DNA from: a virus
Length of the DNA: 47,761 nt
Virus record (IMG/VR): IMGVR_UViG_3300048565_000032
Strand: one strand, 5' to 3'
The notes beneath the pieces are model-generated. The model was not told where the DNA came from. It made no database searches and saw only the letters and a list, made by a program, of their open reading frames with translations. Of this stretch, positions 1 to 40,414 are shown one piece after another. The translations under genes and the position numbers were made by a program. How positions within the stretch are numbered: the stretch's first letter is position 1; every line of letters begins with the position of its first letter.

Positions 1-127
1 CATCTCGACGTTGCAGGAGGCGCGCTTGTCTGCGCTGTCGGCCGCCTTGTAGTCGCTCGATGCGGCGTCGCGCTGTCCCTCCACCCACGCCCGCAGTGCC
101 CGCAGCGCCTTGCCGTCCGGCGCGGGC
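1..127. repeat. Terminal direct repeat, left copy (identical to 47635..47761)
   Basis: Read directly: bases 1-127 (catctcgacgttgcaggagg...ccgtccggcgcgggc) recur exactly at 47635-47761. This implies a circular or terminally redundant molecule of 47,634 unique bp. Confidence 0.95.
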
Positions 128-5131: not shown

Positions 5132-5161
5132 CAGGGGCGGGTGGGGTAGCCGTGGTGGTCG

Positions 5162-26300: not shown

Positions 26301-29300
26301 GAGCGACTCCGGCAAGGGAACAGGCTACTTGGCGTTCTCGGCGCGTGTGCGCGAGACCGCTGCGCTGCTGACCAAGGAGACCGGAAAGACGTGGACCCCG
26401 GCCGAGGTGCAGGAAACGATCTGGTCGTGGGCGAAGACGCTCTACGAGCTGCAGACCGGGGAGGCCTCTGCGACGCAGCTGCTCGCCGAGGGTAAGCTGA
26501 CCGATGAGCTGATCAACTCGACCCCGGACTTCAGCAATCTCTTCCACGAACCGAACTACGCAACGATCCTCAACGAGGCTGGCTATGGCGCGCAACTCGA
26601 AATCCTCCGTGGCACTCGCGGCTCTGCTGATGTCCAGCTTGGTCAAGAAGCCGGATCTGGCAGCGAAGCAGAAGCTACTGCTGGAGAAGCTCGCCGCCGA
26701 CTCCAGCTCCAAGCGGCCAAGCGCCTCGAACGACTCCGCGAACAACGAGCTACCGCCTCCGCCCTCCGCAACGGCTTCGAGCAGCTCGGGCTCACCGATG
26801 ACGAAAGCGGAGACGTCGGTGGAGGGGCGGCTGCGGGACAATCTCCTGTCTACGGAACCGCGCGCGAAGGAAGCACCCGCGTCCGAGCCGTCCACTACTC
26901 CAAGCAGCCCCGAACCTTCCTCAACGGAGCAGCCTACGGCACCGGGCTCAGCGGACAGGAACGCTCTCGCGTAGCGGGCGACCCGATCCTCGGGCAGCGC
27001 ATCTACTTCTACGTCGACGCGGGCACGGGGATCACACCCGAGATCGGTGTCGGAACGGTCGGCCACGAGGTCGTCCTCGAAAACGTCTACGACATCAACG
27101 AGGACCCGCTCGGCATCATCGCCGAGTGGAAGAAGCAGCGAGCCGAGACCGGTGCTACCCTGAACGACATGGAGCTGGCGATCCACACCGCCGGCTTCGA
27201 TGGCTACTTCGTCCCGGCCGTCGGCGCAGCCGTGCTCGTCGGGCCACAACACACGAACGTCTCAGTTCGACAGATCGGTGACACGAATGGACCGCAAACA
27301 GATCGAAGCAACCAAGCCCCGCAGGGAGCAGTTCCAGACCCGAGCGGAGTTCGAGGAGGCTCTGGGGTTCTGGATGAGTCGTTCCGGCAGAGCCCTGTCG
27401 ACGATGCCCCCCTCCGAGGACTCCCCCAAACCGTCCGACACGCCGGCGAAGACGTAGCGTTCGGCCCGTTCCGCACCGCGCGTGAAGCCGCGGCGCGATA
27501 CATGGAGAGGGCAGGGCTCGAATACAACCCGCCGCGCGACTACGTCCAAGTCGATCGTGCGCGTGCGACGCGCATCGCGCAGGCCTTCGAGGAGATGAAG
27601 CACGACCCGGGCAGCCCGGAAGTGCAAGCTGCCTACGACGCGATGATCGATGAGACCATCGCGCAGTGGCAGGTGATCAAGGAGACCGGGCTGCAGGTCG
27701 AGTTCATCGACGGGCCGGACCCCTACCAATCGCCTCGCGACGCGATCCTCGACGTCACGCAGAACAACCACCTCTATGTCTTCCCGACGACGTCTGGCTT
27801 CGGCGGCTCCGAGTCCGCCAACGTCGACATCTCCGGCAACCCGCTGTTGCGCGTCGTCGAGGGCGAGGAGATCAGCGGGCGCCCGGTGCAGGCGAACGAC
27901 ATCTTCCGCATCGTCCATGACTACTTCGGTCATGTGAAGGAGGGCGTCGGCTTCCGTGCTCGCGGTGAGGAGAACGCGTGGCAGCAGCACATGGCGATGT
28001 ATTCGCCGCTCGCGCGCAAGGCCGCGACGAGCGAGACGCGCGGCCAAAACAGCTGGGTCAACTTCGGACCGTTCGCTGAGTCCAACCAGACCGCCAACGG
28101 TGCCGACACGCAGTATGCACCGCAGAAGATCGGCCTGCTCCCCGACTGGGTTGTCGAGGAAGGCTACGCCGGCGACGCCCTCGCCGCCGGAGAGCGGAAG
28201 AAGCCGCAGGGAACCTTCTCGCCTCGGACGCTGACGGCGTTGTTCTACAAGAAGGCCAACATCTCGACCGTCCTGCACGAGACCGCGCACTACTACCTGA
28301 CTGTCTACGCCGACATGGCGGCGCGGCCCGACGCGACGCCTATGATGCGCGCGAACATGCAGACCCTGCTCGACTGGTTCGGGGTCAAAGACCTCGCGAC
28401 GTGGAACGCGCTGTCGATCGAGCAGCAGCGCAAGCACCACGAAGCGTTCGCCTACAACTACGAGGTCTACGCGTTCGAAGGCAAGGCGCCGAGCAAGGAG
28501 ATGAAGACGATCTTCGCACGCTTCGCCGAGTGGCTGCGCGTGTTCTACAAGGATCTGCTGGAGCGCAGGAACCGCGTCTACCGCCGCGAGTTCGGCACCG
28601 ACCTGCCGATGCTGACCAAGGAAGTGCGGCAGGTCATGGACCGCATGCTCGCGAGCGAGGAGGCCGTTGCGCTGACCTACGCGCAGCGCGACCTGCTGCC
28701 CGTGTTCCAGACGCAAGAGGAGTCCGGCTTCGACGACGCGAAGTGGGCAGCCTACCAAGCGATGTGGCAGGAAGAGCGCGACGAAGCGGTCGCCGAGGTC
28801 ACGCGCGCCAGCCTCCGCAACGTCCAGTGGCTGTCGGGCGCTGAAGGCAAGGTTGCCAAAGCGCTGCAGGCTCGGAACAAGGAAGAGCGCGCGAGGATCC
28901 GCCGCGAAGTCGTGCAAGAGGTGCAGAACAACCCGCGCGACCGCGCACGCCGGTGGCTGCGCAAGGGAGAGGTCGTCCAGCCGGACGGGACTGTCGACGT
29001 CGAGCCGAAAGGCACGCCGCACAAGCTCGACCGCGCCACGGTGGTGTCGATGCTACCGCCCGGCACCGATCTGAAGCCGCTGAGCGGGATGCTGAAGAAC
29101 GACGGCCTTCACCCCGACCACGTCGCGGAGGCGCTTGGAGGCGAGTTCAAGACGGGCCGCGCGCTGCTAGACGCCCTGATCGAGATGCGTCCGTTCGAGG
29201 ACATCGTCAACGACCGCACCGACCAGCGCATGCTGGCTGAGCACGCCGAACTGGTCGAGGGGACACCCGAGTGGCGGGACTTCGTCAACCGCGCCGTGAA

Positions 29301-32064
29301 CAGCGAAGCGAGGGCGCGGTTCGCCGCTGCCGAGCAGCGCGCTCTGCAGAAGGCGACCACCCCTGTCCGCGTCCTGCTCGACTCCGCTCGCGAGGCCGCA
29401 CGTCTCTCGTTGGAGCGGTCGAAGGTCGCCGACGTGGACCCGCGCAAGCTGACGGGCACCTTGGACTACATCACCCGCAACCTGCACGAGGCGCAGCGCA
29501 AGGGCGACACCGACTCGATGATCATCTGGAAGCGGAAGCAGCTGCTCTACCACATGCTGGTGGCGCAGGCATACGAGGCGAAGCAAGAGATCGCGTCGGC
29601 ACGCGACGAGTTCCGCAAGATGTTCCGTTCCGACAAGAAGCTGGCGAAGGAGCGCAACGTCGACCTCGTGCTGGCGGCGCGGTGGGTGCTGTCGAAGTTC
29701 GGCCTGACCAGCGAACTGCAGGCGAAGGCGTCCGAGACGGCTCTCGCCACCGCGCAGGAGAACGACCCCGAGCGGCTCGAAGACACGAAGCCTCTGATCG
29801 ATGCCGCAGTCGCCGGCGCGAAGCCTTTCGACCAGCTCACGCTGGCGGAGTTCCGCGACCTGCGCAACACGGTCCGCTACCTGTGGGCGCGCAGCAAGCG
29901 CGACATGGAGATCGAGGTCTCGGGGCGCAAGGTCAAGCGCTCCGCCGCGGTCGCCGAGATGCTCGTGGAGATGAAGAAGGTGCTCGGCGAAGCGCCGGTC
30001 GAGACGAGCCCGATCACTGACGAGGCTCGCAGGTCGAGCCGCTACGCCAGCACCTTCGCGAAGCTGACGCGCATCGAGCACTGGGCGCGCAAGATGGACG
30101 GTGGGACCACGGGCCCGGTGACGACCTACTTGTTCCGCCCGCTGCGCGAACGCTACGACTCCTACATGGTCGATCGCGAGCGCCTCGTGAAGCGCATCCA
30201 CGAAGGCCTGCAGAAGCTGACGTTCAGCGACGCGAAGATCGAAGCCACGGAGCTGATCGGCGCGCCGGTGCTCAACGGCACGAAGCAGCTGCTCGGGGCG
30301 GTCCAGCACGCAGGCAACAACTCGAACCTGCGCAAGCTGTTGCTCGGCTACGGGTGGACCGAGGATCTCGGCAAGGGTGAGTTCAACCGCTCGCGGTGGG
30401 ACAACTTCTTGACGCGCATGATGGCGGAAGGGCACCTGACCAAGGAGCACCTCGACTACCTGCAGATGGTCTGGACGCTCAACGAGAAGGAGCTGAAGCC
30501 GATCGCGCAGAAGGTCAACCGCGAAGTCTACGGTCTGTTCTTCGAACAGATCGAGGCGACGCCGTTCGAGACGCCGTGGGGCACCTACGCCGGCGGCTAC
30601 ATGCCGGCGAAGCCCGACCCGGACCACCCACGCAACAGCGACATCCGTCAGCGGGAAGCGCTCGACGGGATCCAGGCGATGGAGAGCGACTTCCGCAACT
30701 CGATGTCCGGCACGGCGCGCGGCTTCACGATCTCACGCAACCTCTCGACTCGTCCGCTCACTCTCGACATCCGGCTGCAGTCGCGCCACATCGACGAGGT
30801 GCTGCGCTTCGTGCACATGCAGCCTGCGCTGCGCGACGTGAAGGGACTGCTGAAGGACCGTGAGTTCGCCAGCTACTTGAACGGCGTCGACCCGACCGCG
30901 ATCAAGGACATGCTGATCCCGTGGCTCGAAGACGTCGCGCGCAACCAAGTCACGAAGCCCAGCTCGATGCCCGCGCTCGACAAGTTCTTCGGCTTCCTGC
31001 GCCGCAGCACCGGCTTGAACTTCATGTTCGCCTCGTTCCGCAACGCCGCGCAGCAGATCACCGGGCTCAGCAACGTCCTCGTCTACGTGAAGGGTCGCCA
31101 CGTCCGTGACGCGATGTGGCGCTACTACACCAGCGCGCCGAGCACGACGAACTGGGTGGTCGAGCGGTCGAAGTTCATGCAGTCGCGCCTGCGCGATCAG
31201 GTCGGGCAGCTGCACGACGACATCGACCTCCTGCTCGATCCGTCGTGGATGGGCAACCTGAAGCGCTGGACCAACAAGCACGGCTACTTCGCTCAGCGGT
31301 TCATGCAGAACCAAGTCGACGTCGTCGCGTGGCTTGCCTCCTACCAGCAGGAGATGGAGAAGTCCGGGGCCGACGTGAGTGACGCCGACGCCGTCGCCGC
31401 CGCGATCGCCGAGGCTGACGCTGTCGTGCGCCTGACGCAGGGCAGCGTCACCTCGATCGACACCGCTGCCTACGAGCGTTCCTCGGCCTTCGCCCGTCTC
31501 TTCACGCAGTTCAGCTCCTACTACAACACGGTCCTGAACCAGATCACGTCGGCACCGCCGGGGTCGAAGGCCCGCGCCTCGCTGCTCGGGCTGGTCATGC
31601 CGGCGTTCGGTGCGGCCGTCATCGCCGCGGTCGCCTCGGGCGGCGCGGAGTTCGACGACCGGGACGAGAACGGCACCATGGACGAATACCTGGAGTGGCT
31701 GTTCTCGACCCAGGCGCGCGCTGGGCTGGCCACAGTGCCCGGATTCGGCCCGCTCCTGGCGCAGGCCGCGTCGGGGGATAGCCGCGCTGGCGACCGCCTG
31801 ACGCCCGCGCCGGCGTGGTCCTCGCTGCAGGCGCTGGCCCGCTCGGTGTCGAACCTCGCCAGCGGCGACCCGCGAGGCGGCGGCCGGCAAATCTACGACG
31901 CGTTCACGGTGTTCGCGGTGGCCACCGGCATCCCGGTCGGGGGCCTGGGGCGGTCGATCGGCTACGCGGTCGACGTCGCGAGAGGCGACGTCGTGCCGCG
32001 CCACTTGGCGGATCGCATCCGCGGCACCCTGAGCGGCAACGCCGGCTTCGGCACGCGACGCTAG
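23311..32064 (+). CDS. Giant polyvalent virion protein (2,917 aa): N-terminal hydrophobic region, ART-like (H-Y-E) domain, HDxxGH domain, HExxH metallopeptidase motif, C-terminal TM segment
   Basis: Uninterrupted 8,754-nt ORF. FRNWFGDSKVVDEKGQPLVVYHGT...GKFYFASS...EGYDGIV lies at about 25200-25680. IFRIVHDYFGHVKEG lies at about 27900. HETAH is at 28276-28290. The TM-like segment LLGLVMPAFGAAVIAAVASGG lies near 31580. Confidence 0.7.
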   Translation: MSGLSLPPNATTPTADQLTEIRRRQEAAQAAEKDQRMMAVFRQAVTINPEARAEAESISKRLGKPVEALTDNIDVAREMLKVRELQETRRQYPNLDKRLDNLEFTSLVHDDLGNLKLTEDTFDWVKRNFRTGKFMNERGEIGARMMAGLSNSDDTLRLEQLKLLTQDAGQDTGFVASALQLSGQMIGPMAKSFAASTAAAGAVSLFSGPGATVTGPAAFTTTMLASTFAQTAVIEGGNAFLDMRDKGYGEDVSMFSAAFVGLANGALETVGLGIVLNPIRKAVIRRTANKLGQALARPTTKEAITTLAKDYFASVFGEAGQEGVQEFVNVIGEAFARDATDPNLPAPSWGEIGERVSDAFITTAKGMALLGLPAPAIRFHMDTRAAADAKEHQNFMLGLKKGAAESKLRQRNPSVYKDYLRKTAEGSPVEKLYLDGKVFSETLQQLDNVEGSDVTGPVASQQLEAAMPGILERVAEAARTNSDVTIDTAEFAAKLTETAVGDALMPHTRPSESARSFAEVEARAEDVKAMKAEADELLQEKRTTDKEFVESADRVEENLYQQLNATGVLTEKAMSRAVAQQYVSFVVVNAAQLKMTPEEFYKRYPYRVFAAEAQPRDSAAFDQTGDRRTDSPEFRNWFGDSKVVDEKGQPLVVYHGTASTFDTFSKQKAQDKEGRRLGMGWGAGKFYFASSGEAASSAAQFAEMTGRGKQPQVMPVYLSMRKPIDAGSYLARVAARVAKGATRDAAIAQTDREVRKEGYDGIVDHVSGGIAVFDPTQIKSVNNRGTYDPTDPNVLNQLGDSRVKTPTPAVRKLLKSLTPAEQRKITDKTAAKVIAQLKKLPSAKEMAAVAQGGVAKRGWYRESAAALEAVFGADAPRFAMLLAALSPQTSVEQNLTNALNVWKTWIDAGRPTGRDAIIDVMASSVQGKSRESVLEAWIPNSVRALTTDSPSGSLLSGPKVNSFFRNLIGDTTEVTLDAWMANYALVDQAMFGGSLTKSDSGKGTGYLAFSARVRETAALLTKETGKTWTPAEVQETIWSWAKTLYELQTGEASATQLLAEGKLTDELINSTPDFSNLFHEPNYATILNEAGYGAQLEILRGTRGSADVQLGQEAGSGSEAEATAGEARRRLQLQAAKRLERLREQRATASALRNGFEQLGLTDDESGDVGGGAAAGQSPVYGTAREGSTRVRAVHYSKQPRTFLNGAAYGTGLSGQERSRVAGDPILGQRIYFYVDAGTGITPEIGVGTVGHEVVLENVYDINEDPLGIIAEWKKQRAETGATLNDMELAIHTAGFDGYFVPAVGAAVLVGPQHTNVSVRQIGDTNGPQTDRSNQAPQGAVPDPSGVRGGSGVLDESFRQSPVDDAPLRGLPQTVRHAGEDVAFGPFRTAREAAARYMERAGLEYNPPRDYVQVDRARATRIAQAFEEMKHDPGSPEVQAAYDAMIDETIAQWQVIKETGLQVEFIDGPDPYQSPRDAILDVTQNNHLYVFPTTSGFGGSESANVDISGNPLLRVVEGEEISGRPVQANDIFRIVHDYFGHVKEGVGFRARGEENAWQQHMAMYSPLARKAATSETRGQNSWVNFGPFAESNQTANGADTQYAPQKIGLLPDWVVEEGYAGDALAAGERKKPQGTFSPRTLTALFYKKANISTVLHETAHYYLTVYADMAARPDATPMMRANMQTLLDWFGVKDLATWNALSIEQQRKHHEAFAYNYEVYAFEGKAPSKEMKTIFARFAEWLRVFYKDLLERRNRVYRREFGTDLPMLTKEVRQVMDRMLASEEAVALTYAQRDLLPVFQTQEESGFDDAKWAAYQAMWQEERDEAVAEVTRASLRNVQWLSGAEGKVAKALQARNKEERARIRREVVQEVQNNPRDRARRWLRKGEVVQPDGTVDVEPKGTPHKLDRATVVSMLPPGTDLKPLSGMLKNDGLHPDHVAEALGGEFKTGRALLDALIEMRPFEDIVNDRTDQRMLAEHAELVEGTPEWRDFVNRAVNSEARARFAAAEQRALQKATTPVRVLLDSAREAARLSLERSKVADVDPRKLTGTLDYITRNLHEAQRKGDTDSMIIWKRKQLLYHMLVAQAYEAKQEIASARDEFRKMFRSDKKLAKERNVDLVLAARWVLSKFGLTSELQAKASETALATAQENDPERLEDTKPLIDAAVAGAKPFDQLTLAEFRDLRNTVRYLWARSKRDMEIEVSGRKVKRSAAVAEMLVEMKKVLGEAPVETSPITDEARRSSRYASTFAKLTRIEHWARKMDGGTTGPVTTYLFRPLRERYDSYMVDRERLVKRIHEGLQKLTFSDAKIEATELIGAPVLNGTKQLLGAVQHAGNNSNLRKLLLGYGWTEDLGKGEFNRSRWDNFLTRMMAEGHLTKEHLDYLQMVWTLNEKELKPIAQKVNREVYGLFFEQIEATPFETPWGTYAGGYMPAKPDPDHPRNSDIRQREALDGIQAMESDFRNSMSGTARGFTISRNLSTRPLTLDIRLQSRHIDEVLRFVHMQPALRDVKGLLKDREFASYLNGVDPTAIKDMLIPWLEDVARNQVTKPSSMPALDKFFGFLRRSTGLNFMFASFRNAAQQITGLSNVLVYVKGRHVRDAMWRYYTSAPSTTNWVVERSKFMQSRLRDQVGQLHDDIDLLLDPSWMGNLKRWTNKHGYFAQRFMQNQVDVVAWLASYQQEMEKSGADVSDADAVAAAIAEADAVVRLTQGSVTSIDTAAYERSSAFARLFTQFSSYYNTVLNQITSAPPGSKARASLLGLVMPAFGAAVIAAVASGGAEFDDRDENGTMDEYLEWLFSTQARAGLATVPGFGPLLAQAASGDSRAGDRLTPAPAWSSLQALARSVSNLASGDPRGGGRQIYDAFTVFAVATGIPVGGLGRSIGYAVDVARGDVVPRHLADRIRGTLSGNAGFGTRR

Positions 32065-32067
32065 TAG

Positions 32068-32141
32068 TGGCAGGACGGGGTGGGGTCGAACCACCATCGC
32101 CCGATTTGGAGGCGGGCATTCTACCGTTGAACTACCGCCCC
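32068..32141 (-). tRNA. tRNA-Trp (anticodon CCA), CCA-3' encoded
   Basis: Hand fold of the reverse complement. Acceptor GGGGCGG/CCGTCCT (two G-U pairs), D arm GTTC-AACGGTA-GAAT, anticodon arm CCCGC-CTCCAAA-TCGGG (C-U at 31-39), variable CGAT, T arm GGTGG-TTCGACC-CCACC, then discriminator G and CCA. Confidence 0.8.
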
Positions 32142-32166
32142 CGAGAAAAGACTCCGCGGCTAGGGA

Positions 32167-32291
32167 TGTGACAGCAGGTGGCTTCGCCTCGGCCAGCGGC
32201 GCTTGCGCGCCGGCAGGATTCGAACCTGCGTATCTTTGCGGTGAAAGATGGAAGCCGTCACGGCATCCGCGGATTGACAACAGCTGTCACA
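32167..32291 (-). ncRNA. Candidate Y-like RNA (unit 4): 9-bp terminal stem enclosing a hairpin and tRNA-like module 3 (32179..32229)
   Basis: 5' TGTGACAGC (32291-32283) pairs perfectly with 3' GCTGTCACA (32175-32167). Inside: GCAGG-TTCGAAT-CCTGC, CGGCGC-GCAA-GCGCCG, C, TGGC-CGAGGCGAA-GCCA. Confidence 0.55.
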
Positions 32292-32373
32292 CACCGAATC
32301 CGGCGACGAGCCGTTGGTCGACCGGTGCGTGACAGCCGAAGAAGAGAGCCCGACAAGGGATCGTCACAGCTTT

Positions 32374-32427
32374 GCCCTACCGTTTGGGCTACGGGCCCGT
32401 GGTGGGCCTGCCGAGATTCGAACTTGG
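32374..32427 (-). ncRNA. Permuted tRNA-like module 2 (T arm, closed acceptor helix, D arm)
   Basis: CCAAG-TTCGAAT-CTCGG (one A-C mismatch), CAGGCCC-ACCAC-GGGCCCG, TA, GCCC-AAACGGTA-GGGC. Confidence 0.6.
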
Positions 32428-32494
32428 ATGCAAGCCGGGACAGCATTCGGGCAGTGAGAGTCGGCGACAAGGGATCGCAGCAGTCTTCTTTCTC

Positions 32495-32547
32495 GCTCTA
32501 CCGTTGAGCTACACCGGGCAGGGCCCGATGGCTGGACTCGAACCAGC
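32495..32547 (-). ncRNA. Permuted tRNA-like module 1 (T arm, closed acceptor helix, D arm)
   Basis: GCTGG-TTCGAGT-CCAGC, CATCGGG-CCCTG-CCCGGTG (7 bp including one G-U), TA, GCTC-AACGGTA-GAGC. Confidence 0.65.
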
Positions 32548-32787
32548 AACCTAGACCTTAGAGGGGATGTAGACCGCTACTGCATTCGCCGAAATGGTGC
32601 GCGGACAAGAGGTGTGACAGGTGTGTCTTGGCAAAGCATCGGGGAGCCCTGATCAAGGGGCCCGGTAGCCTCGTGGTGAAGATGAAGCCCGTCACGGCAT
32701 TCCGCGTCTGGGTGTGCGACAAGGGTCGGCCGGAGCGAGGTATCATGGCGAGATGAACGCCCCGGTCAGCATTCGCACGCCGGCACT

Positions 32788-34404
32788 CTAGCGCCCGAAC
32801 TCACGAATGCAAGAGGGCCAGTCCTTGTTCTGTAGCCAAGCGGCGACAGACGTGAACACCGCGTCCGAGAAGCCGGCGACGCGGAGAGTGTCCTTCCGCT
32901 TCGGCAGCTGGTCGGTGGCGTTCGGGCTGATGTTGATGCGGACCTGCTTCGCGTTCGGGTTCTTGCGCTTGATGTCGTCCCACGCGGCCACAGTGCCGGG
33001 CGCCCGGTCGCGGGTGTGGGTCGCGTAGTTGTAGGTGAAGCTCATGCCACTTGAGTCGAGCCAGCTCTCGTTGTCCGAGATCAGGATGAACGTGTCCACG
33101 TCGCGCTTCTCGCTCGCGAGCAGCCGCATCGGCGCCGAGCAGTCCGTGCCGCCGCCCGCGTTCGCCAGCTTCTGCGCCATCGTCGGGATGCTGTCGAGCG
33201 GGTTCAACGGGACAATGACCGCATTGTTCGCGAACGTCATCACGCGCGTCTGCGGCGAGCGCCGCACGATGGCCGCCGCGAACAGCGCCGCCACGTCCAT
33301 GTAGGTGATCTCGGTCGACGCGTTGCCGCGATACCCGGTCACCGGGTTCTTCATCGAACCGGAACAGTCGACCGCGACGTAGACGTTGCCTTCGAGCGCG
33401 GGCACCGCCGCGAGCGAGTGATCGAGCGCCTGCCCGAGTGCATACTTCAGCTCGTGCGGCATGTCGGCGTCCTTGGCGACCATCGAGAACGCCTGCAGCA
33501 GCTGGTAGGGGAACTGCTTCGCCTTCAGCACCTCCTCCTTCGAGGAGAGGCGCGCGACGATCTTCTTCAGCAGCTCGGGGTTGCTCTTGAAGACGCCGTG
33601 CCGCTGCGCGGTCACGAGGTTCATGCGCGTGAACTGGAAGCCGCCCCGATCGAACAGCTGCTCCCAGTGCGCCGTCGTCAGCGGGACGGTGTCGATCATG
33701 TTGAACGGCACGTCCGGCAGCGGCTTCGTCTGGTCGGCGCGGAACGCGAGCGTGTCCTGCACCAGCTGCGGCAAGGCCTCCGGGTTCTCGACCGGCTTGC
33801 CGATCAGCATCCGGTAGAGGGTGGCGCGCTCGCGGTCGAGGGTGAAGCCGAGCGTGTCCATGTCCTTCGACACCGGTCGCGGGCGTGCGAGCTTGATGAT
33901 GTCGCCGAGGCTCGGATCCTTGGCGATCGACTGCTTCCACAGGTAGTCGACGTTCGCGCGGTTCAGCCAGTTCGACACCAGCCGCTTGCCGACCGAGCCG
34001 AGCGAGCGGCGGCCGAAGCGACCGGAGCGCACCGCCTGCACGAAGTTCGAGAGCATCTTCGCGTTGTTGATCACCTCGTCGAACAGCGCCGCGGTGAACG
34101 CGCCGCTCTTCTTGCCGAAGAGGTAGGCCAGCAGAACCGCCGGCGTGTCCTTCATGAAGCCAGCGCCGCGCGCGTAGCGCGCGACCTGCGCGACGAACGC
34201 GTCGTCGCACTTCGCGGCCAGCTCCAGAATCTGCGCGAGCTGAGTCTCGGCCGAGACGTAGAACGTGTCGCCGAAGAAGCCGGTCACCGCCAGCTGCGCG
34301 AGAGCCTCCTCGGGCTCCATCGCGTAGGCCGGCGCGCCGGCGTTGTTGGTGGCGTCGGGGGCGACGTAGAGGGACGGGGAGGAAGCAAAGGTCTTCTTGT
34401 TCAT
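32788..34404 (-). CDS. rsr: Ro60/Rsr orthologue (TROVE domain + vWA domain with MIDAS motif)
   Basis: N-terminus TNNAGAPAYAMEPEEALAQLAVTGFFGDTFYVSAE...VARYARGAGFMKDTPAVLLAYL is TROVE-like. The C-terminal vWA domain has DCSGS (VAVDCSGSM), GGGTDCSAP and ILISDNESW. ATG 34404 is preferred (GGAG 9 nt upstream); an alternative ATG lies at 34446. Confidence 0.85.
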   Translation of the reverse strand: MNKKTFASSPSLYVAPDATNNAGAPAYAMEPEEALAQLAVTGFFGDTFYVSAETQLAQILELAAKCDDAFVAQVARYARGAGFMKDTPAVLLAYLFGKKSGAFTAALFDEVINNAKMLSNFVQAVRSGRFGRRSLGSVGKRLVSNWLNRANVDYLWKQSIAKDPSLGDIIKLARPRPVSKDMDTLGFTLDRERATLYRMLIGKPVENPEALPQLVQDTLAFRADQTKPLPDVPFNMIDTVPLTTAHWEQLFDRGGFQFTRMNLVTAQRHGVFKSNPELLKKIVARLSSKEEVLKAKQFPYQLLQAFSMVAKDADMPHELKYALGQALDHSLAAVPALEGNVYVAVDCSGSMKNPVTGYRGNASTEITYMDVAALFAAAIVRRSPQTRVMTFANNAVIVPLNPLDSIPTMAQKLANAGGGTDCSAPMRLLASEKRDVDTFILISDNESWLDSSGMSFTYNYATHTRDRAPGTVAAWDDIKRKNPNAKQVRINISPNATDQLPKRKDTLRVAGFSDAVFTSVAAWLQNKDWPSCIREFGR

Positions 34405-34452
34405 CTTCAGGGTCTCCAGTAGTCCCGCAGGTCTACTGGAGTTCACCCTTGA

Positions 34453-37400
34453 CTACAAGCCCGGCCTGTGCCGATCCCACATCGCGCCCTGCCATGGGTA
34501 GGCGCGCAGCTCCGTCTGCTCGGTCGCCATGTAGCGATCCATGTAGTCGAAGAACGCCGGCTGGTTCCAGAACGGGCGCAGACCCATCGCGCGCATGGCG
34601 AGCACGCACCCCGACCACGAGATGGCGGAGCAGCACCGCCGGTAGTCGTTCTCGCCTGGGTTCTTCACCCACCGGTGGTCGTCGCCTGCCGGCGACTGCG
34701 CGTGGAAGTTCCCCCACTCCGGCAGACCGACGTCGGCCGCGGTGTAGCCGCCGAAGCCCCAGTTGTAGACGCCCGGCGAGGTCTCCTGCACGTAGAACGT
34801 CTGCCCATCCTCGCTGAAGGGGATGACGTTGCGCGCGTCGCCGGGCGTGAAGATGGTCGGCGCGTAGGTGGTGCCGGCCGCCAGCATCGCGTCGTCGTGG
34901 AGCACGCGCCCAGCGAAGAGGATCGGAAACTTGCGCCCGTTGCAGTGGCCGTTGACACCCCACTTCGCCCCGAGCTTCATGTGCTCGAAGTTGTCGATCC
35001 CCATCTGCGTCAACGCGATCACGATCTTCCGCTTCTGTGCGTTGGTCAGGTTCGTGTTCGCGAGCAGCGCGGCGTCGCCGATCTGCCGAGTGAACCGCTG
35101 GTAGTAGTCGCCGAGCCCGGCCTGCGGGTGCATGTAGCGCGAGGTCCAGTTCGGGAAGTGATCGAGCCACAGCGTTGCGTAGAACCAAGCCTCTACCTCT
35201 GCGACGCTCGGCGCGCCGGCAGCCGGGGTGAGATCCGCGAGGAGCGCGTAGTCGAGGTCTTGCTCGCGGAAGCGCACGGTCTTGTCCGCGCCGGCGTAGG
35301 CGGGTCGGAACGCGTCGGCGCTCGGCGCCGCCGCCAGAACGGTCAACACCGCAGCCGTCTGCAGCGCGGACCACTGCCCGTTCGCCGGCGCGAAGGCCGG
35401 CGTCGTCGAGATCAGCGACCCGGTTGTGATCGTCAACGGCAGCTGCGCGCCGACGTTCATCGCCGGCGTCCACCGTGGCGCGTTGGTCTCGTCGCGCAGG
35501 AAGAAGTCGCCGGGGTTCACCGTCGAGATGTCGCTGTCGTAGAGCGACGAGTCGTAGCCTTGCTTGCCGTCGGCGCGCGGCGCCGGGCTGAGCATCGACC
35601 CTCCCGTGGTGCGGCCCGTCGGCTGGACCACGACGCCCGGCGTGATCGCCGCGATCGTGACCGGGCCGACCACCCACGGGTCACCGTTGCAGAAGCGTCC
35701 GGCCGGGCGCGGCTGCGCGAAGGTCCAGGTCACCCCGAACTGAGTCATCGACGACGCTGTCGGCGCCGGTGCCGCCACGACACCGGGGGCCAGCCACGCC
35801 GTTTCCTTGGTCTCGTTCGCTCCGCTGGTCAGCTGCGCCCACACCGCGCCCGCCTGTGGGTCGGCCGGGTCGTTGCGGAGCACCACCGCCGGCGCCAGAC
35901 CCATGCCGAAGTAGTTGAACACCTCGTCCGCGGGCGCCGTGCCGGCGACCGGGCGCTGCGGGCTCGACACCCAGCGCCCACTCTGCAGGAGCCACGCGTC
36001 GCGCATGACCGCCCTGGCGCCCTCCAGGGCGATGCTTCGAGCGAGGGGGATGTCGAGCACCCGTCCGGCCAGATCGAGGCCGTAGCACCCGACGCCCTGC
36101 TGCCAGGGGATCCACCACGCCCCCGCCCCGAGGCGCGGGTCATCGACCCTGACGTCCCAGATCGCGAGGGGGCGCGTCCCGAGCGCGGCGTAGACCAGAC
36201 GCACGCGGTCCTCGTAGCGCGCCCTGACGCGCGCAGCGAGCGCCCGGTCCTCCAGGTCGCGCCACAGGCCGACGACCAGGATCCCCGCCCAGCCGACGCT
36301 ACGGGCCGCGTCAGGGCCGCTGGTCGACCACCCAGGCCGCACGGTCTCGCCGAAGAGGAAGAGGCGGGCCTGCTGCTCCAGCTCCCACTGCAGGGCAGCG
36401 GAGTCGGTCAGGCGGGCAGCTGCGATGACGGTGTTGTAGAGCCAGTGCTCGCGATCGGGGCCCAGCCACCCGTGGGTGTCGGGCAAAACGCCCGTCTTGC
36501 CGAGGCGGTCTGGGGAGACCCCGAGGTTGAAGTGGGGGCGGCCGTTCCAGGTGACGCAGTTCGGGTGCGCGATCGGATCCGCGAAGGAGCCGTCCGCTTC
36601 GAGGTGGTGGCAGGGCCGGGCAAGCATCTTCAGCGCCGCGAAGTAGGCGACCTGCTCCGCCCCGACGCCGCCCGGCAACAGGCTTTCGCCGCGCACGAAG
36701 ACCTGATCCTCCTGCGCACCGGTGTCGCCGGCGGTCGGGTTCGCGCCGATCGTGCCGGCCTCCCAGGTGTGCAGCCGGCGGAGGGCTTCGGGCCACTGGC
36801 CCATCCAGGCGCGGACATCGAATCCGGGCGGGTAGCTCGGGTTGCCGTCCGGCAGCAAACGAGCAATGGCGACGGCGGTCGCCGCGCGCAGCCCGGCGGC
36901 GTTCACTTGGAACCACCCGGCCTCGTCGACATCGCCGAGGATCCGCCGCCACGCGAGCGTGACCGCGGCGCCGCGCGCCTGACCGTCCGCGAAGGCGGTC
37001 CCCGCCGGCACGATCGGACTGCCCCAGCCGGCGCCCAGGACGTGCACGTAGGCGTCGCCGAACCGGAACGTCAGGGCGTCGCTGGTCTCGCCCATGTCGG
37101 GGATCGAGCCGTTGCTGCAGCAGACCACTACCTCTCCGGTGGCCATGCCCGGCTGGTCAGGGAGCCACCGCAGCCACGCGTCGACGTTCAGCATCGGCGT
37201 GACACGCCCGCGCATGCGACAGCGCCAGCCGGCACCGTCGGGGGTGACGGACACCAAGCCGAGGGGCGCGCCGTTCACCGTCGCGAGGCCGCCGAAGAAC
37301 GCGACCGGGTCCGCCGGCAAGCTCAGCTCGGGCGCCGGCGACGGTGCCGCGTCGGCGAGGCGCAGGTCTCGCTCTTCGTGCGGCGCGAGCGTGACGTGAA

Positions 37401-37605
37401 CATCGAGCGCCCAGACGTCGAGCCCGATCTTGCGCCCGAGCACGAAGCGCTCACCCGTCGGCAGGGTGCCGGCGTCGTGCGTCGGGCGCGTGTCGGTGGT
37501 CGTCCGCAACCAGCCGGTGAAGGGGTGCGGCGCGTAGTTCGCGACGCGGACGGTCTGCGCGGTAGCCGCGCAGCTGAGGAGGAACGCAAGCAGTGTTCGG
37601 AGCAT
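34453..37605 (-). CDS. Large secreted (or lipo-) protein of unknown function (1,050 aa)
   Basis: Signal peptide MLRTLLAFLLSCAATAQT (ATA-Q cleavage site or an LLSC lipobox). Trp/Gly/Pro-rich globular composition, with Cys motifs GHCNGRKF and YRRCCSAISWSGC. I recognised no catalytic family. Confidence 0.7.
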   Translation of the reverse strand: MLRTLLAFLLSCAATAQTVRVANYAPHPFTGWLRTTTDTRPTHDAGTLPTGERFVLGRKIGLDVWALDVHVTLAPHEERDLRLADAAPSPAPELSLPADPVAFFGGLATVNGAPLGLVSVTPDGAGWRCRMRGRVTPMLNVDAWLRWLPDQPGMATGEVVVCCSNGSIPDMGETSDALTFRFGDAYVHVLGAGWGSPIVPAGTAFADGQARGAAVTLAWRRILGDVDEAGWFQVNAAGLRAATAVAIARLLPDGNPSYPPGFDVRAWMGQWPEALRRLHTWEAGTIGANPTAGDTGAQEDQVFVRGESLLPGGVGAEQVAYFAALKMLARPCHHLEADGSFADPIAHPNCVTWNGRPHFNLGVSPDRLGKTGVLPDTHGWLGPDREHWLYNTVIAAARLTDSAALQWELEQQARLFLFGETVRPGWSTSGPDAARSVGWAGILVVGLWRDLEDRALAARVRARYEDRVRLVYAALGTRPLAIWDVRVDDPRLGAGAWWIPWQQGVGCYGLDLAGRVLDIPLARSIALEGARAVMRDAWLLQSGRWVSSPQRPVAGTAPADEVFNYFGMGLAPAVVLRNDPADPQAGAVWAQLTSGANETKETAWLAPGVVAAPAPTASSMTQFGVTWTFAQPRPAGRFCNGDPWVVGPVTIAAITPGVVVQPTGRTTGGSMLSPAPRADGKQGYDSSLYDSDISTVNPGDFFLRDETNAPRWTPAMNVGAQLPLTITTGSLISTTPAFAPANGQWSALQTAAVLTVLAAAPSADAFRPAYAGADKTVRFREQDLDYALLADLTPAAGAPSVAEVEAWFYATLWLDHFPNWTSRYMHPQAGLGDYYQRFTRQIGDAALLANTNLTNAQKRKIVIALTQMGIDNFEHMKLGAKWGVNGHCNGRKFPILFAGRVLHDDAMLAAGTTYAPTIFTPGDARNVIPFSEDGQTFYVQETSPGVYNWGFGGYTAADVGLPEWGNFHAQSPAGDDHRWVKNPGENDYRRCCSAISWSGCVLAMRAMGLRPFWNQPAFFDYMDRYMATEQTELRAYPWQGAMWDRHRPGL

Positions 37606-37632
37606 GGGGCGCGAGTCTACGCCCCGCCCCGA

Positions 37633-37902
37633 TCACTTGCGAGGTGCGAGCTTCCTCTCGTCGAGGGACACGCGGAGCGCGTCCTTGATCGTGCGCTCGG
37701 CCAGACCGGAACCCTTGACGATCCGGCTCAGCACCCAGTCGCTGGCGCCTTGGTCGCCGTTCATCAGGTTGTAGAGGTGGGGGCGAGAGATCCCGAAGTC
37801 CTTCGCGACGGACGCGAGGGGGCGGGGCTTGTCGCCCTTCTTCAGGCCACGACGAGCGTGGCGCTCCACGAGATCACGAAACGACGAAGTCACACGAACC
37901 AT
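37633..37902 (-). CDS. XRE/Cro-type helix-turn-helix DNA-binding protein (89 aa)
   Basis: LASVAKDFGISRPHLYNLMNG is a classic HTH. ATG at 37902 is preferred over the track start at 38004, which would abut the polymerase stop at 38008-38010. Confidence 0.6.
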   Translation of the reverse strand: MVRVTSSFRDLVERHARRGLKKGDKPRPLASVAKDFGISRPHLYNLMNGDQGASDWVLSRIVKGSGLAERTIKDALRVSLDERKLAPRK

Positions 37903-38007
37903 ACGAACACCAGGGTCAGGAGAATCAGGACGCACGCGGCGACGTTCTCGCCGGGTGAACATTGATCGTGGGTCTCGGGCATGGGTGTAGACGCTAGCAT
38001 ACAACTG

Positions 38008-40029: not shown

Positions 40030-40214
40030 TTGCCGACCGCCAGGGCCACGAAGAGAAGGAGGAAGACGAGCGTGGCAGGCACCCACAAAGGCGCGAGCAC
40101 CCACCCCCAGCTCCAGGCGATGACGCCGCAGAGCTTGAGCACGATGAACGCGATCGTGAGGGCTCCGAGGAACCCGAGGGAACTCCGAGCATCCTTCGCA
40201 GGTTCTGACGTCAT
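40026..40214 (-). CDS. Small membrane protein (two TM segments, 62 aa)
   Basis: LGFLGALTIAFIVLKLCGVIAWSWGWVLAPLWVPATLVFLLLFVALAV. Coupled to both neighbours. Confidence 0.5.
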   Translation of the reverse strand: MTSEPAKDARSSLGFLGALTIAFIVLKLCGVIAWSWGWVLAPLWVPATLVFLLLFVALAVGK

Positions 40215-40414
40215 CGCCGCGTCCTCGGTGGTTCGTCATACCACTCGGCCCGGCCGGGCAACGCCGACAGCGACATGTAGTCGCTGATCGGCGTGCCCCC
40301 GAGCTTGCGCGCAAGCGCGACCCAATCGTCGCGCTCGCGTGCGTGGCGTTCCAAGTCCTCGACGCGAGGATCCATCGCGTGCCGGAGACTCCGAGCCTTG
40401 GTTTCCAGGTGCAT
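40211..40414 (-). CDS. Hypothetical protein (67 aa)
   Basis: ATG at 40414, 2 nt after the SSB stop. It is the only part of the long track ORF 40211..41062 that does not overlap the SSB frame. Confidence 0.4.
   Translation of the reverse strand: MHLETKARSLRHAMDPRVEDLERHARERDDWVALARKLGGTPISDYMSLSALPGRAEWYDEPPRTRR

What the first reader, a model, noticed from the sequence alone, without database searches (positions are those of the whole stretch)
32160..32733. The RNA region is a tandem array of four paralogous ~115-140-nt units with conserved boxes and a covarying hairpin
Each unit, read on the minus strand, starts with a (C)TTGTC box (32722, 32608, 32470, 32280; an extra copy lies at 32356). 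It is followed 12-22 nt later by G(A)ATGC (32702, 32587, 32448, 32268). This box opens a short hairpin whose closing ATG/CAT (or ATGC/GCAT, GATG/CATC) is kept while the interior changes: CCG-TGA-CGG in units 1 and 4, GTAG-CGGT-CTAC in unit 2. Units 2-4 then carry the tRNA-like modules, whereas unit 1 instead has a different hairpin (GGGCCC-CTTGATCA-GGGCTC). GTGAC/GTCAC-containing segments (TGTGACAGC at 32291-32283 with GCTGTCACA at 32175-32167, plus others near 32693, 32616, 32365 and 32332) can form unit-closing stems, which are candidate Ro-binding helices. Because the motif is self-complementary, several alternative pairings exist and I cannot resolve them by eye.
Basis: seen in the sequence. 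Interest (0 to 1): 0.8.

Follow-up and report, generated by a model that had tools for sequence, protein, structure and literature searches.

The report
Phage Ro60 gene's Y-RNA array
Just downstream of a phage gene for a Ro60-type RNA-binding protein lie five small structured "Y RNA" genes, three of which mimic tRNA, followed by a real tRNA; this is a new example of an arrangement already known from bacteria and other phages.

Summary

**What is there**
- The window is a complete genome of about 47.6 kb from a BPP-1-like podophage.
- Its rsr gene (Ro60 ortholog, 32788-34404, minus strand) is followed by five Y-RNA-like units, not four:
  - U0, YrlB-like: 32778-32714
  - U1, no tRNA-like part: 32706-32600
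  - U2, U3, U4, YrlA-like with T arm, acceptor-like stem and D arm: 32592-32461, 32452-32348, 32273-32153
- A 58-nt hairpin (32338-32281) lies between U3 and U4, and tRNA-Trp (32141-32068) ends the array.

**Correct unit structure**
- G(A)ATGC is the 5' strand and CTTGTC/CTAGCC the 3' strand of the same unit's closing helix.
- The bases between ATGC and CATC form a long-range stem 2, not a local hairpin.
- Covariation across 27 units from seven related phages supports both stems.

**Novelty**
- 72 of 80 bacterial rsr loci carry one to six such units on the rsr strand, sometimes with tRNAs embedded.
- Microbacterium phage Magritte has three.

This is a new member of a known kind. Binding to Rsr, processing into separate RNAs and the role in infection are all inferred.

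The parts
32788..34404 (-). rsr, a Ro60 ortholog (538 aa by the JGI gene call; the open frame runs up to a GTG at 34446)
   Evidence: Pfam vWA_Ro60 2.9e-16 and TROVE 6e-7. PHROG 850 'RNA-binding protein' 3e-38. D. radiodurans Rsr structure 2NVO, E 2e-18. Gene call and mapping to the window.
32714..32778 (-). U0, type B Y RNA (YrlB-like, 65 nt). Stem 1 is GUGCGA/UCGCAC; AUGC lies opposite CUUG; stem 2 is 32768-32758 with 32737-32726; the terminal hairpin CAUC..GAU is 32755-32742. It starts 9 nt after the rsr stop codon.
   Evidence: Rfam YrlB 23.2 bits, E 0.07, below the gathering score of 97. MFE fold. Seven type-B units from related phages, one per phage: 12 of 21 pairs show compensatory changes, 91% paired against 76% when shuffled, 0 of 500 shuffles as high.
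32600..32706 (-). U1, type Y unit (107 nt) with no tRNA-like module. Stem 1 is CGCGGA/UCCGCG; stem 2 is GUGACGGG (32695-32688) with CCUGUCAC (32621-32614); the inner hairpin GGGCCC..GGGCUC is 32663-32644.
   Evidence: MFE fold, z -2.5. R1 23.4 bits, E 0.002. Similar units at L008 4276-4362 and L005 4535-4638.
32461..32592 (-). U2, type A1 YrlA-like Y RNA (132 nt). Stem 1 is UCGGCGA/UCGCCGA, and this is the only unit with the strict GNCGAAN0-1G motif. Stem 2 is 32581-32572 with 32485-32477. T arm 32547-32531, acceptor-like stem 32530-32512, D arm 32511-32495.
   Evidence: Rfam YrlA 50.3 bits, E 4.7e-10, below the gathering score of 69. R1 123 bits. Seven orthologs, one per phage: 20 of 30 pairs compensatory, 94.6% paired against 70% shuffled and 33-46% with partners slid. 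Coordinates; motif test.
32348..32452 (-). U3, type A2 YrlA-like Y RNA (105 nt, no V hairpin). Stem 1 is GCCCGA/UCGGGC. Stem 2 is 32442-32432 with 32372-32362 (one C-U mismatch). T arm 32427-32411, acceptor-like stem 32408-32394, D arm 32391-32374.
   Evidence: Rfam YrlA 42.2 bits, E 1e-7. R1 60.4 bits. Orthologs in five other phages. The isolated-unit fold is weak (z -1.0), and stem 2 appears only in the centroid structure.
32281..32338 (-). HP, a 58-nt stand-alone hairpin with a stem of about 19 bp, between U3 and U4. It has no AUGC/CAUC boxes, and the TTGTC at 32280 follows it. Function unknown.
   Evidence: MFE -36.5 kcal/mol, z -5.3, 0 of 200 shuffles as stable. No homolog in related loci. 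Not hit by R1.
32153..32273 (-). U4, type A3 YrlA-like Y RNA (121 nt). Stem 1 is UCCGCGG/CCGCGGA, with GGAUGC opposite CUAGCC (an A-U to G-C compensation relative to the other units). Stem 2 is 32262-32255 with 32174-32167. V hairpin 32249-32232, T arm 32229-32213, acceptor-like stem with a GCAA loop 32212-32197, degenerate D-like arm 32195-32179.
   Evidence: Rfam YrlA 30.8 bits, E 2e-4. R1 57.7 bits. Orthologs at L005 4259, L008 4371 and L011 4429. Fold z -2.4.
32068..32141 (-). tRNA-Trp (anticodon CCA) with an encoded 3' CCA, 11 nt after U4. It is the last element of the minus-strand unit and converges on the stop codon (32064) of a 2917-aa plus-strand gene.
   Evidence: ARAGORN. Rfam tRNA 55.5 bits, above its gathering score. 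ORF list.

Best explanation
The region is a cassette of small non-coding RNA genes that serve the phage's own Ro60 ortholog, Rsr. It holds five Y RNAs (one YrlB-like hairpin, one Y RNA with a non-tRNA effector domain, and three YrlA-like RNAs carrying a circularly permuted tRNA mimic of T arm, acceptor-like stem and D arm), one orphan hairpin and a genuine tRNA-Trp.

Each Y RNA is closed by pairing of its own 5' and 3' ends (stem 1). Next comes a conserved asymmetric internal loop (5' AUGC opposite 3'-strand CUUG/CUAG). Then comes a second long-range helix (stem 2), and then a variable effector module that begins at the invariant CAUC.

**Shown here**
- The sequence motifs, the structure and its covariation.
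- The tight linkage to rsr.
- Conservation of the cassette and of its unit types across related phages.
- The presence of the same kind of locus in bacteria.

**Inferred from published work on bacterial and phage Ro60/Y RNA systems (PMC4201824, PMC12135203)**
- The array is transcribed with rsr as one precursor. U0 starts 9 nt after the stop codon, the spacers are 6-11 nt and pyrimidine-rich, and no sigma-70-type promoter or terminator was found in between.
- The precursor is cut into separate RNAs, by RNase P at the tRNA and possibly in the acceptor-like stems, and by endo- or exonucleases in the spacers.
- Rsr binds stem 1 plus the AUGC loop of each RNA.
- The different effector modules couple or gate the Rsr ring to different host partners, such as PNPase or tRNA-recognising enzymes, during infection.
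For: **Linkage to rsr**
- rsr is identified by Pfam, PHROG and PDB matches.
- The array lies directly 3' of rsr on the same strand, and the public gene calls place no gene there.

**Match to known Y RNA families**
- Rfam YrlA aligns full-length (model positions 1-114) to three units at E 5e-10 to 2e-4, and YrlB aligns to U0 at E 0.07.
- In 25 of the 27 units found in seven phages the 5' box reads AUGC (AUGA and AUGU in the other two), and in all 27 the 3' box is one of CUUG, CUAG, CUUA, GUUA, CCUG or CUGG; box wording was itself a search criterion. The corresponding Rfam consensus reads CgaAUGC...cUuGucG.

**Structure**
- Pairing each unit's 5' strand with its own 3' strand beats pairing it with another unit's. 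Stem 1 gives -8.7 against -3.5 kcal/mol and stem 2 gives -13.7 against -8.0. In 10,000 permutations none reached the observed value.
- RNAalifold and pair counts on the seven A1 orthologs give 20 of 30 pairs with compensatory changes and 94.6% paired, with 0 of 500 shuffles as high and 33-46% when partners are slid. For type B, 12 of 21 pairs are compensatory.
- T loops read UUCGAxU and D loops contain GG in U2-U4 (seen in the sequence).

**Conservation**
- Six related phage contigs (Rsr 57-62% identical) all carry three to five such units straight after rsr, with or without tRNAs.
- The unit types recur in different orders.

**Precedent**
- M. smegmatis YrlA and YrlB are bound by Rsr and processed from one precursor (PMC4201824).
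- Thermus phage phiLo Ro60 binds two phage Y-like RNAs and forms complexes with host PNPase (PMC12135203).
Against: - No unit reaches an Rfam gathering score (50, 42 and 31 against 69; 23 against 97).
- The strict GNCGAAN0-1G motif is present only in U2. U0 and U3 keep CGAA, while U1 and U4 have CGGAA and CGGA.
- Thermodynamic z-scores of isolated units are modest (-1.0 to -2.5), and the MFE folds of U3 and U4 do not show stem 2.
- There is no transcript, end-mapping or binding evidence.
- The promoter and terminator scan covers only sigma-70-type and intrinsic-terminator consensus sequences.
- The host is unknown.
- The HP hairpin is not explained by this model.
Confidence: 0.85

Rival explanations
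1. One reading: four units that each begin with CTTGTC, followed by G(A)ATGC opening a short local hairpin closed by ATG/CAT, with GTGAC/GTCAC stems closing the units as the Ro-binding helices.
For: The boxes and complementary segments exist at the stated positions. Local hairpins such as CCG-UGA-CGG and GUAG-CGGU-CUAC can be drawn.
Against: - The local segment folds no better than when its interior is shuffled (-3.4 against -3.0 kcal/mol). The hairpin register differs from unit to unit. AUG/CAU closes the best local fold in only 2 of 27 units. In whole-unit folds 209 bases pair long-range and 7 locally.
- The sequences flanking GAATGC and the next downstream CTTGTC are complementary in every unit and covary. 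That fixes the register as GAATGC = unit start and CTTGTC = unit end.
Confidence: 0.03
2. The tRNA-like units act mainly as tRNA decoys or mimics, independently of Rsr. For example, they could soak up host tRNA-targeting nucleases or tRNA-modifying enzymes, alongside the phage tRNA-Trp. Their position next to rsr would then be incidental or only regulatory.
For: - Three units carry T arm, acceptor-like stem and D arm with tRNA-like loop sequences.
- Genuine tRNAs (Trp, Ile, His, and one with a UUA anticodon) sit inside or at the end of the arrays in relatives and in bacterial loci.
- L012 has an orphan T-AS-D module without Y stems.
Against: - Every tRNA-like module in the window is embedded in the conserved stem 1 / AUGC / stem 2 scaffold. 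That scaffold is not a tRNA feature, and it covaries.
- Units without any tRNA-like part (U0, U1) share the scaffold.
- R1 hits occur in 72 of 80 bacterial rsr loci, always on the rsr strand.
- This reading is not mutually exclusive with the main explanation.
Confidence: 0.08
3. The region is a structured 3' UTR or trailer of the rsr mRNA, or decayed debris of tRNA genes. It would stabilise or terminate the transcript but yield no discrete functional RNAs.
For: - No separate promoter or terminator was detected between rsr and the array.
- There is no expression data.
- Weak sub-threshold Rfam tRNA hits span neighbouring units.
Against: - Each unit is self-contained and closed by its own terminal helix, and is separated from the next by short spacers.
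- The same unit types recur in a different order and number in relatives, which fits independent modules.
- Compensatory changes maintain helices that are not tRNA helices.
- Homologous RNAs are discrete and Rsr-bound in M. smegmatis and Salmonella (PMC4201824).
Confidence: 0.04

Closest known systems
YrlA (Rfam RF02553), the tRNA-like bacterial Y RNAs encoded next to rsr in Salmonella, M. smegmatis and more than 250 bacteria and phages (Chen et al. 2014, PMC4201824)
   Same: - Same strand as rsr and within 700 nt of it.
- A terminal helix formed by the 5' and 3' ends, with CGAAUGC on the 5' strand and CUUGUCG on the 3' strand.
- A second helix, an optional V hairpin, then T arm, acceptor-like stem and D arm in that permuted order.
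- T loop UUCGAxU and D loop GG.
- Full-length alignment to the Rfam model for U2, U3 and U4.
   Different: - Scores are below the Rfam gathering threshold (50, 42 and 31 against 69).
- The strict GNCGAAN0-1G motif occurs only in U2.
- There are three distinct YrlA-like types in one locus. One lacks the V hairpin (U3) and one has a degenerate D arm and a GCAA-capped acceptor-like stem (U4).
- The invariant CAUC after stem 2 is not part of the Rfam consensus.
[quoted passage not shown]
   Same: U0 is a 65-nt hairpin made of stem 1, the AUGC loop, stem 2 and a short terminal hairpin with a pyrimidine-rich loop (UCGCC). It is encoded beside a YrlA-type RNA and rsr. In M. smegmatis, YrlA and YrlB come from a single precursor.
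   Different: The match to RF02565 is only 23 bits (E 0.07, gathering score 97). The resemblance is architectural, not a demonstrated family membership.
Phage-encoded Ro60 with Y-like RNAs: mycobacteriophages (Chen 2014) and Thermus phage phiLo Ro60 with Yrl1 and Yrl2 (PMC12135203).
   Same: A phage carries its own Ro60 ortholog and adjacent tandem Y-like RNAs on the same strand. For phiLo, binding to the phage Ro60 and ternary complexes with host PNPase have been shown experimentally.
   Different: - In those phages the RNAs lie upstream of rsr and number two or three. Here five lie downstream, starting 9 nt after the stop codon and ending in a tRNA.
- The carrier here is a small (about 47.6 kb) BPP-1-like podophage, whereas most of those phages have genomes of 130-190 kb (Cashline, at 52 kb, is the exception).
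- The Rsr here is closer to bacterial Rsr from Verrucomicrobiota, Acidobacteriota and Pseudomonadota (40-47% identity) than to the actinophage proteins (about 23%).
Bacterial rsr loci with tandem Y-RNA arrays, with or without tRNAs (80 loci fetched here)
   Same: - R1 finds 179 units, all on the rsr strand. 72 of 80 loci have at least one, 36 have three or more, and six have five or six.
- Several units reach the Rfam YrlA gathering score.
- tRNAs are embedded in the arrays of L076 and L024.
   Different: None in kind. The phage cassette looks like a compact copy of this bacterial arrangement.

Membership tests
YrlA (RF02553) | Covariance-model score at or above the Rfam gathering score (69 bits) | tested here: not met
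   U2 50.3, U3 42.2 and U4 30.8 bits. All are full-length alignments with E 4.7e-10, 1e-7 and 2e-4 in a 1.2-kb search. Nothing but tRNA passes at gathering level.
YrlA (RF02553) | Encoded within 4 kb of rsr and on the same strand (criterion of Chen et al. 2014) | tested here: met
   The units lie 10-640 nt downstream of the rsr stop codon on the minus strand.
YrlA (RF02553) | GNCGAAN0-1G motif in the 5' strand of the helix formed by the RNA ends | tested here: inconclusive
   The strict motif is present only in U2 (GGCGAAUG). U0 and U3 have a CGAAUG core. U1 has CGGAAUG. U4 has CGGAUG with a compensating C on the 3' strand.
YrlA (RF02553) | tRNA-like domain: T arm, acceptor-like stem-loop and D arm in that order, with tRNA-like loop nucleotides | tested here: met
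   - The Rfam alignment places all three arms in U2-U4.
- For type A1, the T arm, a 7-bp acceptor-like stem (6 of 7 pairs compensatory) and the D arm are supported in seven orthologs.
- T loops UUCGAxU and D-loop GG can be read in the sequence.
- U4's D arm is degenerate.
YrlA (RF02553) | Bound by Rsr, and a substrate of tRNA enzymes (TruB, DusA, RNase P, CCA-adding enzyme) | not testable with these tools
   Needs RIP, EMSA, modification mapping and RNase P assays.
YrlB (RF02565) | Covariance-model score at or above the gathering score (97 bits) | tested here: not met
   U0 scores 23.2 bits, E 0.07.
YrlB (RF02565) | Long hairpin closed by the RNA ends, carrying the Rsr-binding 5' strand and a small pyrimidine-rich terminal loop, encoded next to YrlA and rsr | tested here: met
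   MFE and consensus folds of U0 and six type-B units of related phages. 12 of 21 pairs are compensatory, and 0 of 500 shuffles reach the observed value. The loop is UCGCC.
Ro60/Rsr protein (TROVE + vWA) | TROVE HEAT-repeat ring plus a C-terminal vWA domain | tested here: met
   PF05731 and PF25045 both pass their curated cut-offs. Alignment to D. radiodurans Rsr 2NVO covers residues 32-484, E 2e-18.
tRNA (RF00005) | Cloverleaf scoring above the gathering score, with an anticodon | tested here: met
   32068-32141: 55.5 bits against a threshold of 29. ARAGORN calls tRNA-Trp(CCA).

The most novel reading that the evidence does not exclude
A clade of small uncultivated podophages keeps a fixed toolkit of at least four or five functionally distinct Y-RNA types (B, Y, A1, A2, A3) plus tRNAs behind its own Ro60 gene. 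With it the phage would assemble several different Rsr ribonucleoproteins during infection. Possible roles are redirecting or blocking host PNPase and other RNases, or using the tRNA mimics as decoys against tRNA-targeting defence nucleases. That would make Ro60/Y RNA a phage counter-defence or host-takeover module rather than a stress-response system.
Probability: 0.2. Interest if true: 0.7.

Novelty: new member of a known kind. Interest (0 to 1): 0.4.

Why it matters
- **Annotation.** The result gives the correct structure of a phage Ro60/Y-RNA cassette. The same cassette is conserved in at least seven related metagenomic phages and resembles many bacterial rsr loci. Such arrays go unannotated or are mis-annotated: one YrlA-like unit of phage Magritte is deposited as tRNA-Arg.
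- **Biology.** The role of the tRNA-like domain of bacterial Y RNAs, and the reason one Ro60 needs several Y RNAs, are still open questions. A compact phage locus with five different, conserved Y-RNA types and a single Rsr could serve as a small portable system for binding, processing and partner-identification experiments.
- **Limit.** It does not reveal a new kind of system.

Tried and rejected
Tested on 27 units and rejected.
Rejected on complementarity and covariation of the flanks.
- **HP (32281-32338) as a degenerate Y unit or a conserved element.** It has no AUGC/CAUC boxes, no R1 hit and no homolog in relatives. It remains unexplained.
- **Promoter and terminator scan, 31800-38200.** No sigma-70-type promoter; three terminator-like sites, about the chance number (2.5 expected), none on the minus strand. 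This is uninformative for other promoter types.
- **Closer relatives, to obtain fine-scale covariation.** The other contigs carrying the identical Rsr have an identical RNA region. A single-protein scan of genome contigs found nothing.
- **L001 (Rsr 48% identical).** It has no Rfam hit and only two weak R1 hits.
- **Myxococcus phage Mx1 (Rsr 40% identical).** It shows no Y-like RNA with Rfam or R1.
- **Sequence-based alignments of types A2 and A3.** These were too few and too gappy for clean covariation statistics.
- **Reviews on bacterial Ro60.** PMC10870794 and PMC6542706 are not held in the library. The supplementary tables of Chen 2014, which list the loci with several YrlAs, are not held either.
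- **Host identification.** Not achieved.
- **D arms of A3-type units resembling particular tRNA classes.** This idea rests on memory only and was not tested.
Full report
**1. What the window is.**
The window is about 66% G+C. Its genes identify it as a phage:
- a T7-type portal (PF12236, 8866-10593+);
- an epsilon15/BPP-1-type major capsid protein (PF20911, 12616-13620+);
- a nozzle-like protein;
- a 2917-aa polyvalent protein with ART-PolyVal, LPD22 and DUF7178 domains (23311-32064+);
- on the minus strand, a family A DNA polymerase (38008-40314), a PD-(D/E)XK/DUF2800 protein and an SNF2-type helicase.

The structural genes are about 68% identical at the DNA level to Bordetella phage BPP-1. 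The first 127 bases are repeated exactly at the end. The window is therefore a complete podophage genome of about 47.6 kb, and the same contig is in JGI metagenome 3300048564.

**2. The neighbouring gene.**
The minus-strand ORF 32788-34404 is a Ro60 ortholog (Rsr). The evidence is vWA_Ro60 2.9e-16 and TROVE 6e-7, PHROG 850, and D. radiodurans Rsr structure 2NVO at E 2e-18 over residues 32-484. It is the last protein gene of the leftward replication module. The region 32068-32787 carries no called gene. It ends 4 nt from the stop codon of the convergent 2917-aa gene.

**3. Checking the observation.**
The Rfam E-value scan of 31800-33000 shows the true register:
- The YrlA model aligns end to end (positions 1-114) to 32592-32458 (50.3 bits, E 4.7e-10), 32453-32344 (42.2 bits, 1e-7) and 32273-32150 (30.8 bits, 2e-4).
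- YrlB aligns to 32781-32710 (23.2 bits, E 0.07).
- In every alignment the unit begins with (C)G(A)AUGC and ends with CUUGUCG or CUAGCCG.

By the same logic, CGCGGAAUGC...CUUGUCCGCG defines a fifth unit at 32706-32600. So G(A)ATGC is the start of a unit, and the next CTTGTC, 60-130 nt downstream, is its end.

The resulting map on the minus strand:

| Element | Coordinates | Length |
|---|---|---|
| U0 | 32778-32714 | 65 nt |
| U1 | 32706-32600 | 107 nt |
| U2 | 32592-32461 | 132 nt |
| U3 | 32452-32348 | 105 nt |
| HP hairpin | 32338-32281 | 58 nt |
| U4 | 32273-32153 | 121 nt |
| tRNA-Trp(CCA) | 32141-32068 | 74 nt |

Spacers are 7-11 nt and mostly pyrimidine-rich. Each unit, folded alone, closes with stem 1 in its MFE structure.

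**4. Is it more than chance?**
- A covariance model built from seven orthologs of U2 (R1) hits the 47.7-kb window only inside the array. It scores 123 bits for U2 (itself part of the model), and 60, 58 and 23 bits for U3, U4 and U1, which were not in it.
- Five ATGC-N(12-13)-CATC boxes fall on one strand within about 510 nt. The whole window holds 17 on both strands, against 9.4 expected.
- Pairwise sequence similarity between units is strong only for U1-U4 (z 11) and U2-U3 (z 8.7). It is moderate for U0-U1 (z 4.2) and for U2 with tRNA-Trp (z 5.8, the D arm), and weak otherwise. The units are old paralogs that share an architecture, not recent repeats.

**5. Comparative evidence.**
A protein search found Rsr proteins 53-62% identical on phage-like metagenomic contigs. 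Six of those contigs, with Rsr 57-62% identical, were fetched. Three of them carry a large convergent gene after the array; two of these, plus a third lying one gene further on in L008, match the polyvalent-protein domains. All six have a 450-790 nt gene-free stretch immediately after rsr. Rfam finds one to four YrlA-like hits in each, plus tRNAs (Ile, His, Trp, and one with anticodon UUA) inside or at the end of the arrays.

A motif-plus-complementarity search defined 27 units in the seven phages. All share this plan:
- stem 1 (5-9 bp);
- AUGC;
- the stem-2 5' strand (8-10 nt);
- YUN, then CAUC and a variable core;
- the stem-2 3' strand;
- 2-6 nt, then CUUG/CUAG/CUUA/GUUA/CCUG/CUGG;
- the stem-1 3' strand.

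The base just before AUGC covaries with the base just after the 3' box: GA-AUGC with CUUG-UC, GG-AUGC with CUAG-CC.

Pairing each unit's 5' strand with its own 3' strand, compared with the 3' strands of the other 26 units, gave these results:

| Helix | Own partner | Other units' partners |
|---|---|---|
| Stem 1 | -8.7 kcal/mol | -3.5 kcal/mol |
| Stem 2 | -13.7 kcal/mol | -8.0 kcal/mol |

None of 10,000 permutations reached the observed mean.

For the seven A1 orthologs, RNAalifold recovers stem 1, stem 2, the T arm, a 7-bp acceptor-like stem and the D arm. 20 of 30 pairs carry compensatory changes. 94.6% of cells are paired, against 70% after shuffling (0 of 500 as high) and 33-46% when partners are slid by 1-3 columns. 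For the YrlB-like type, 12 of 21 pairs are compensatory, with 91% paired against 76% shuffled.

**6.
The bases between AUGC and CAUC are the 5' strand of stem 2.
- Folded alone, that segment gives -3.4 kcal/mol on average, against -3.0 with the interior shuffled.
- The best local hairpin differs in register from unit to unit.
- AUG/CAU closes it in only 2 of 27 units.
- In whole-unit MFE folds, 209 of 281 of these bases pair with the 3' segment and 7 pair locally.

The apparent 'kept closing pair with changing interior' comes from two invariant boxes flanking a covarying long-range strand. CAUC instead opens the next element. That element is the terminal hairpin in type B (AUC/GAU). In types A1 and A3 it is the V hairpin described by Chen et al.. 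In type A2 it runs into the T arm.

The GTGAC/GTCAC segments are stem 2 of U1 and U4 (GUGACGG/CUGUCAC). U2 has GUAGCGG/CUGCUGC at the same place, that is, two compensatory pairs. HP alone is a very stable hairpin (-36.5 kcal/mol, z -5.3), and it has no counterpart in relatives.

**7. Unit types.**
From the variable cores and the R1 scores, the units fall into recurring types.

| Type | Description | Window unit | Found in |
|---|---|---|---|
| B | 64-94 nt hairpin | U0 | all seven phages |
| A1 | V hairpin, T arm, acceptor-like stem, canonical D arm GUAGCUCA..GGUAGAGC | U2 | exactly one in each of seven phages |
| A2 | no V hairpin; T arm directly after CAUC | U3 | six of seven |
| A3 | V hairpin AUCUA../..UAGAU, T arm GCGGGUUCGAAUCCCGC, GCAA-capped acceptor-like stem, divergent D arm | U4 | four of seven |
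| Y | no tRNA-like part, shares GGCUACCGGG | U1 | also L008 4276; L005 4535 is a third unit without a tRNA-like part but lacks that motif |

Their order differs between phages, and tRNAs sit at different places. This argues for independent modules with non-redundant roles.

**8. How it most likely works.**
Shown here:
- the structure and its covariation;
- the linkage to rsr;
- the conservation across relatives.

Inferred from published systems:
- Co-transcription with rsr. U0 starts 9 nt after the stop codon, and no sigma-70-type promoter or minus-strand terminator was found (weak evidence). In M. smegmatis, YrlA and YrlB are processed from one precursor (PMC4201824).
- Release of the individual RNAs. 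RNase P would cut at tRNA-Trp, and possibly in 7-bp acceptor-like stems as in M. smegmatis YrlA. Other nucleases would cut in the pyrimidine-rich spacers, which often end in CAUU or CACU.
- Binding of Rsr to stem 1 plus the conserved 5' strand.
- Coupling or gating of the Rsr ring to host factors by the different effector modules. PNPase is the documented partner in Deinococcus and Salmonella, and for the Ro60 of Thermus phage phiLo, which binds two phage Y-like RNAs and attenuates PNPase (PMC12135203).

What this does for the phage is unknown.

**9. Comparison with what is known.**
- Chen et al. 2014 reported 355 YrlA-like RNAs near rsr in 254 bacteria and 22 phages, including loci with several copies.
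- It found three in Microbacterium phage Magritte, where one is annotated as tRNA-Arg.
- In 80 bacterial rsr loci whose Rsr is 40-47% identical to the phage protein, R1 gave 179 hits. All are on the rsr strand. 72 loci have at least one, 36 have three or more, and six have five or six, including six in Hahella sp. NBU794.
- Several of these reach the Rfam YrlA gathering score, and tRNAs are embedded in the arrays of L076 and L024.
- The strand bias is also seen with the simple motif search: 53 of 80 loci have at least one unit on the rsr strand, against 10 of 80 on the opposite strand.

The phage cassette is therefore a compact copy of a common bacterial arrangement. By Rfam's own thresholds the units are not formal members of RF02553 or RF02565. 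By architecture, context and covariation they are YrlA-like and YrlB-like Y RNAs.

**10. Verdict.**
The unit boundaries, the unit count, the hairpin and the identity of the Ro-binding helix are wrong.

In novelty terms this is a new member of a known kind. Interest is moderate (0.4). The useful points are:
- five conserved Y-RNA types with one Rsr in a small phage;
- the widespread lack of annotation, or mis-annotation, of such arrays;
- an unexplained hairpin.

None of this would greatly surprise a specialist.

Noticed in passing
window 1-127 and 47635-47761: There is an exact 127-bp direct terminal repeat. The window is therefore a complete, circularly closed or terminally redundant phage genome of about 47.6 kb.
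   Followed up: partly
window 32281-32338 (minus strand): A very stable stand-alone hairpin (-36.5 kcal/mol, z -5.3) lies between U3 and U4. It has no Y-RNA boxes and no homolog in related phages. Its 3' arm UGUGACAGC is perfectly complementary to the 3' strand of U4's stem 2, and its 5' arm resembles that strand. It could be a duplication remnant, an RNase III-type processing site or a competitor for U4 folding.
   Followed up: partly
L011 4717-4793: A related phage carries a tRNA with anticodon UUA, which ARAGORN calls 'tRNA-Stop' (ochre-suppressor-like). It follows directly after tRNA-His and tRNA-Trp at the end of that phage's Y-RNA array.
   Followed up: no
L098 (Microbacterium phage Magritte OR553905) 2190-2608: Three tandem YrlA-like units (R1 39, 53 and 79 bits) lie upstream of the Ro-like gene. 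The third (2477-2608) overlaps a feature deposited as tRNA-Arg(tct) at 2473-2549, which is probably a mis-annotation.
   Followed up: partly
L085 (Hahella sp. NBU794 chromosome) 4129-5294; also L076, L035, L090, L049, L024: These bacterial rsr loci carry five or six tandem YrlA-like units on the rsr strand. tRNA genes are embedded in the array in L076 (4917-4991 and 5124-5195) and clustered beside it in L024.
   Followed up: partly
L012 2862-2915: An orphan tRNA-like module (T arm, acceptor-like stem, D arm) lies between two complete units and has no Y-RNA stems 1 and 2 (Rfam YrlA positions 31-81; R1 positions 48-106).
   Followed up: no
window 23311-32064 (+): A 2917-aa polyvalent protein carries LPD22, an ADP-ribosyltransferase (ART-PolyVal) and DUF7178. 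Its stop codon is 4 nt from the 3' end of the convergent tRNA-Trp. Three relatives encode homologs of 2614-2918 aa matching the same domain families; in L012 and L013 the gene converges directly on the array, in L008 it lies one gene further on.
   Followed up: no
window 34453-37605 (-): A 1050-aa protein of unknown function lies immediately upstream of rsr. It has no Pfam match and hits only PHROG 34846 (unknown function, E 8.5e-51). The gene upstream of rsr differs among relatives.
   Followed up: no
spacers between units in the window and in L005, L008, L010, L011, L012: The inter-unit spacers are 6-11 nt, pyrimidine-rich and often end in CAUU or CACU (for example UUCUCAUU, UUUCCAUU). This could be a processing signal or a single-stranded 3' tail.
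   Followed up: partly
L014 (Myxococcus phage Mx1 OR576727) 4206-4662: Mx1 has the closest Rsr in the phage collection searched (40% identity). Neither Rfam nor R1 detects a Y-like RNA near it. Two short 'hypothetical protein' CDSs and a tRNA-Gly follow its rsr gene.
   Followed up: partly
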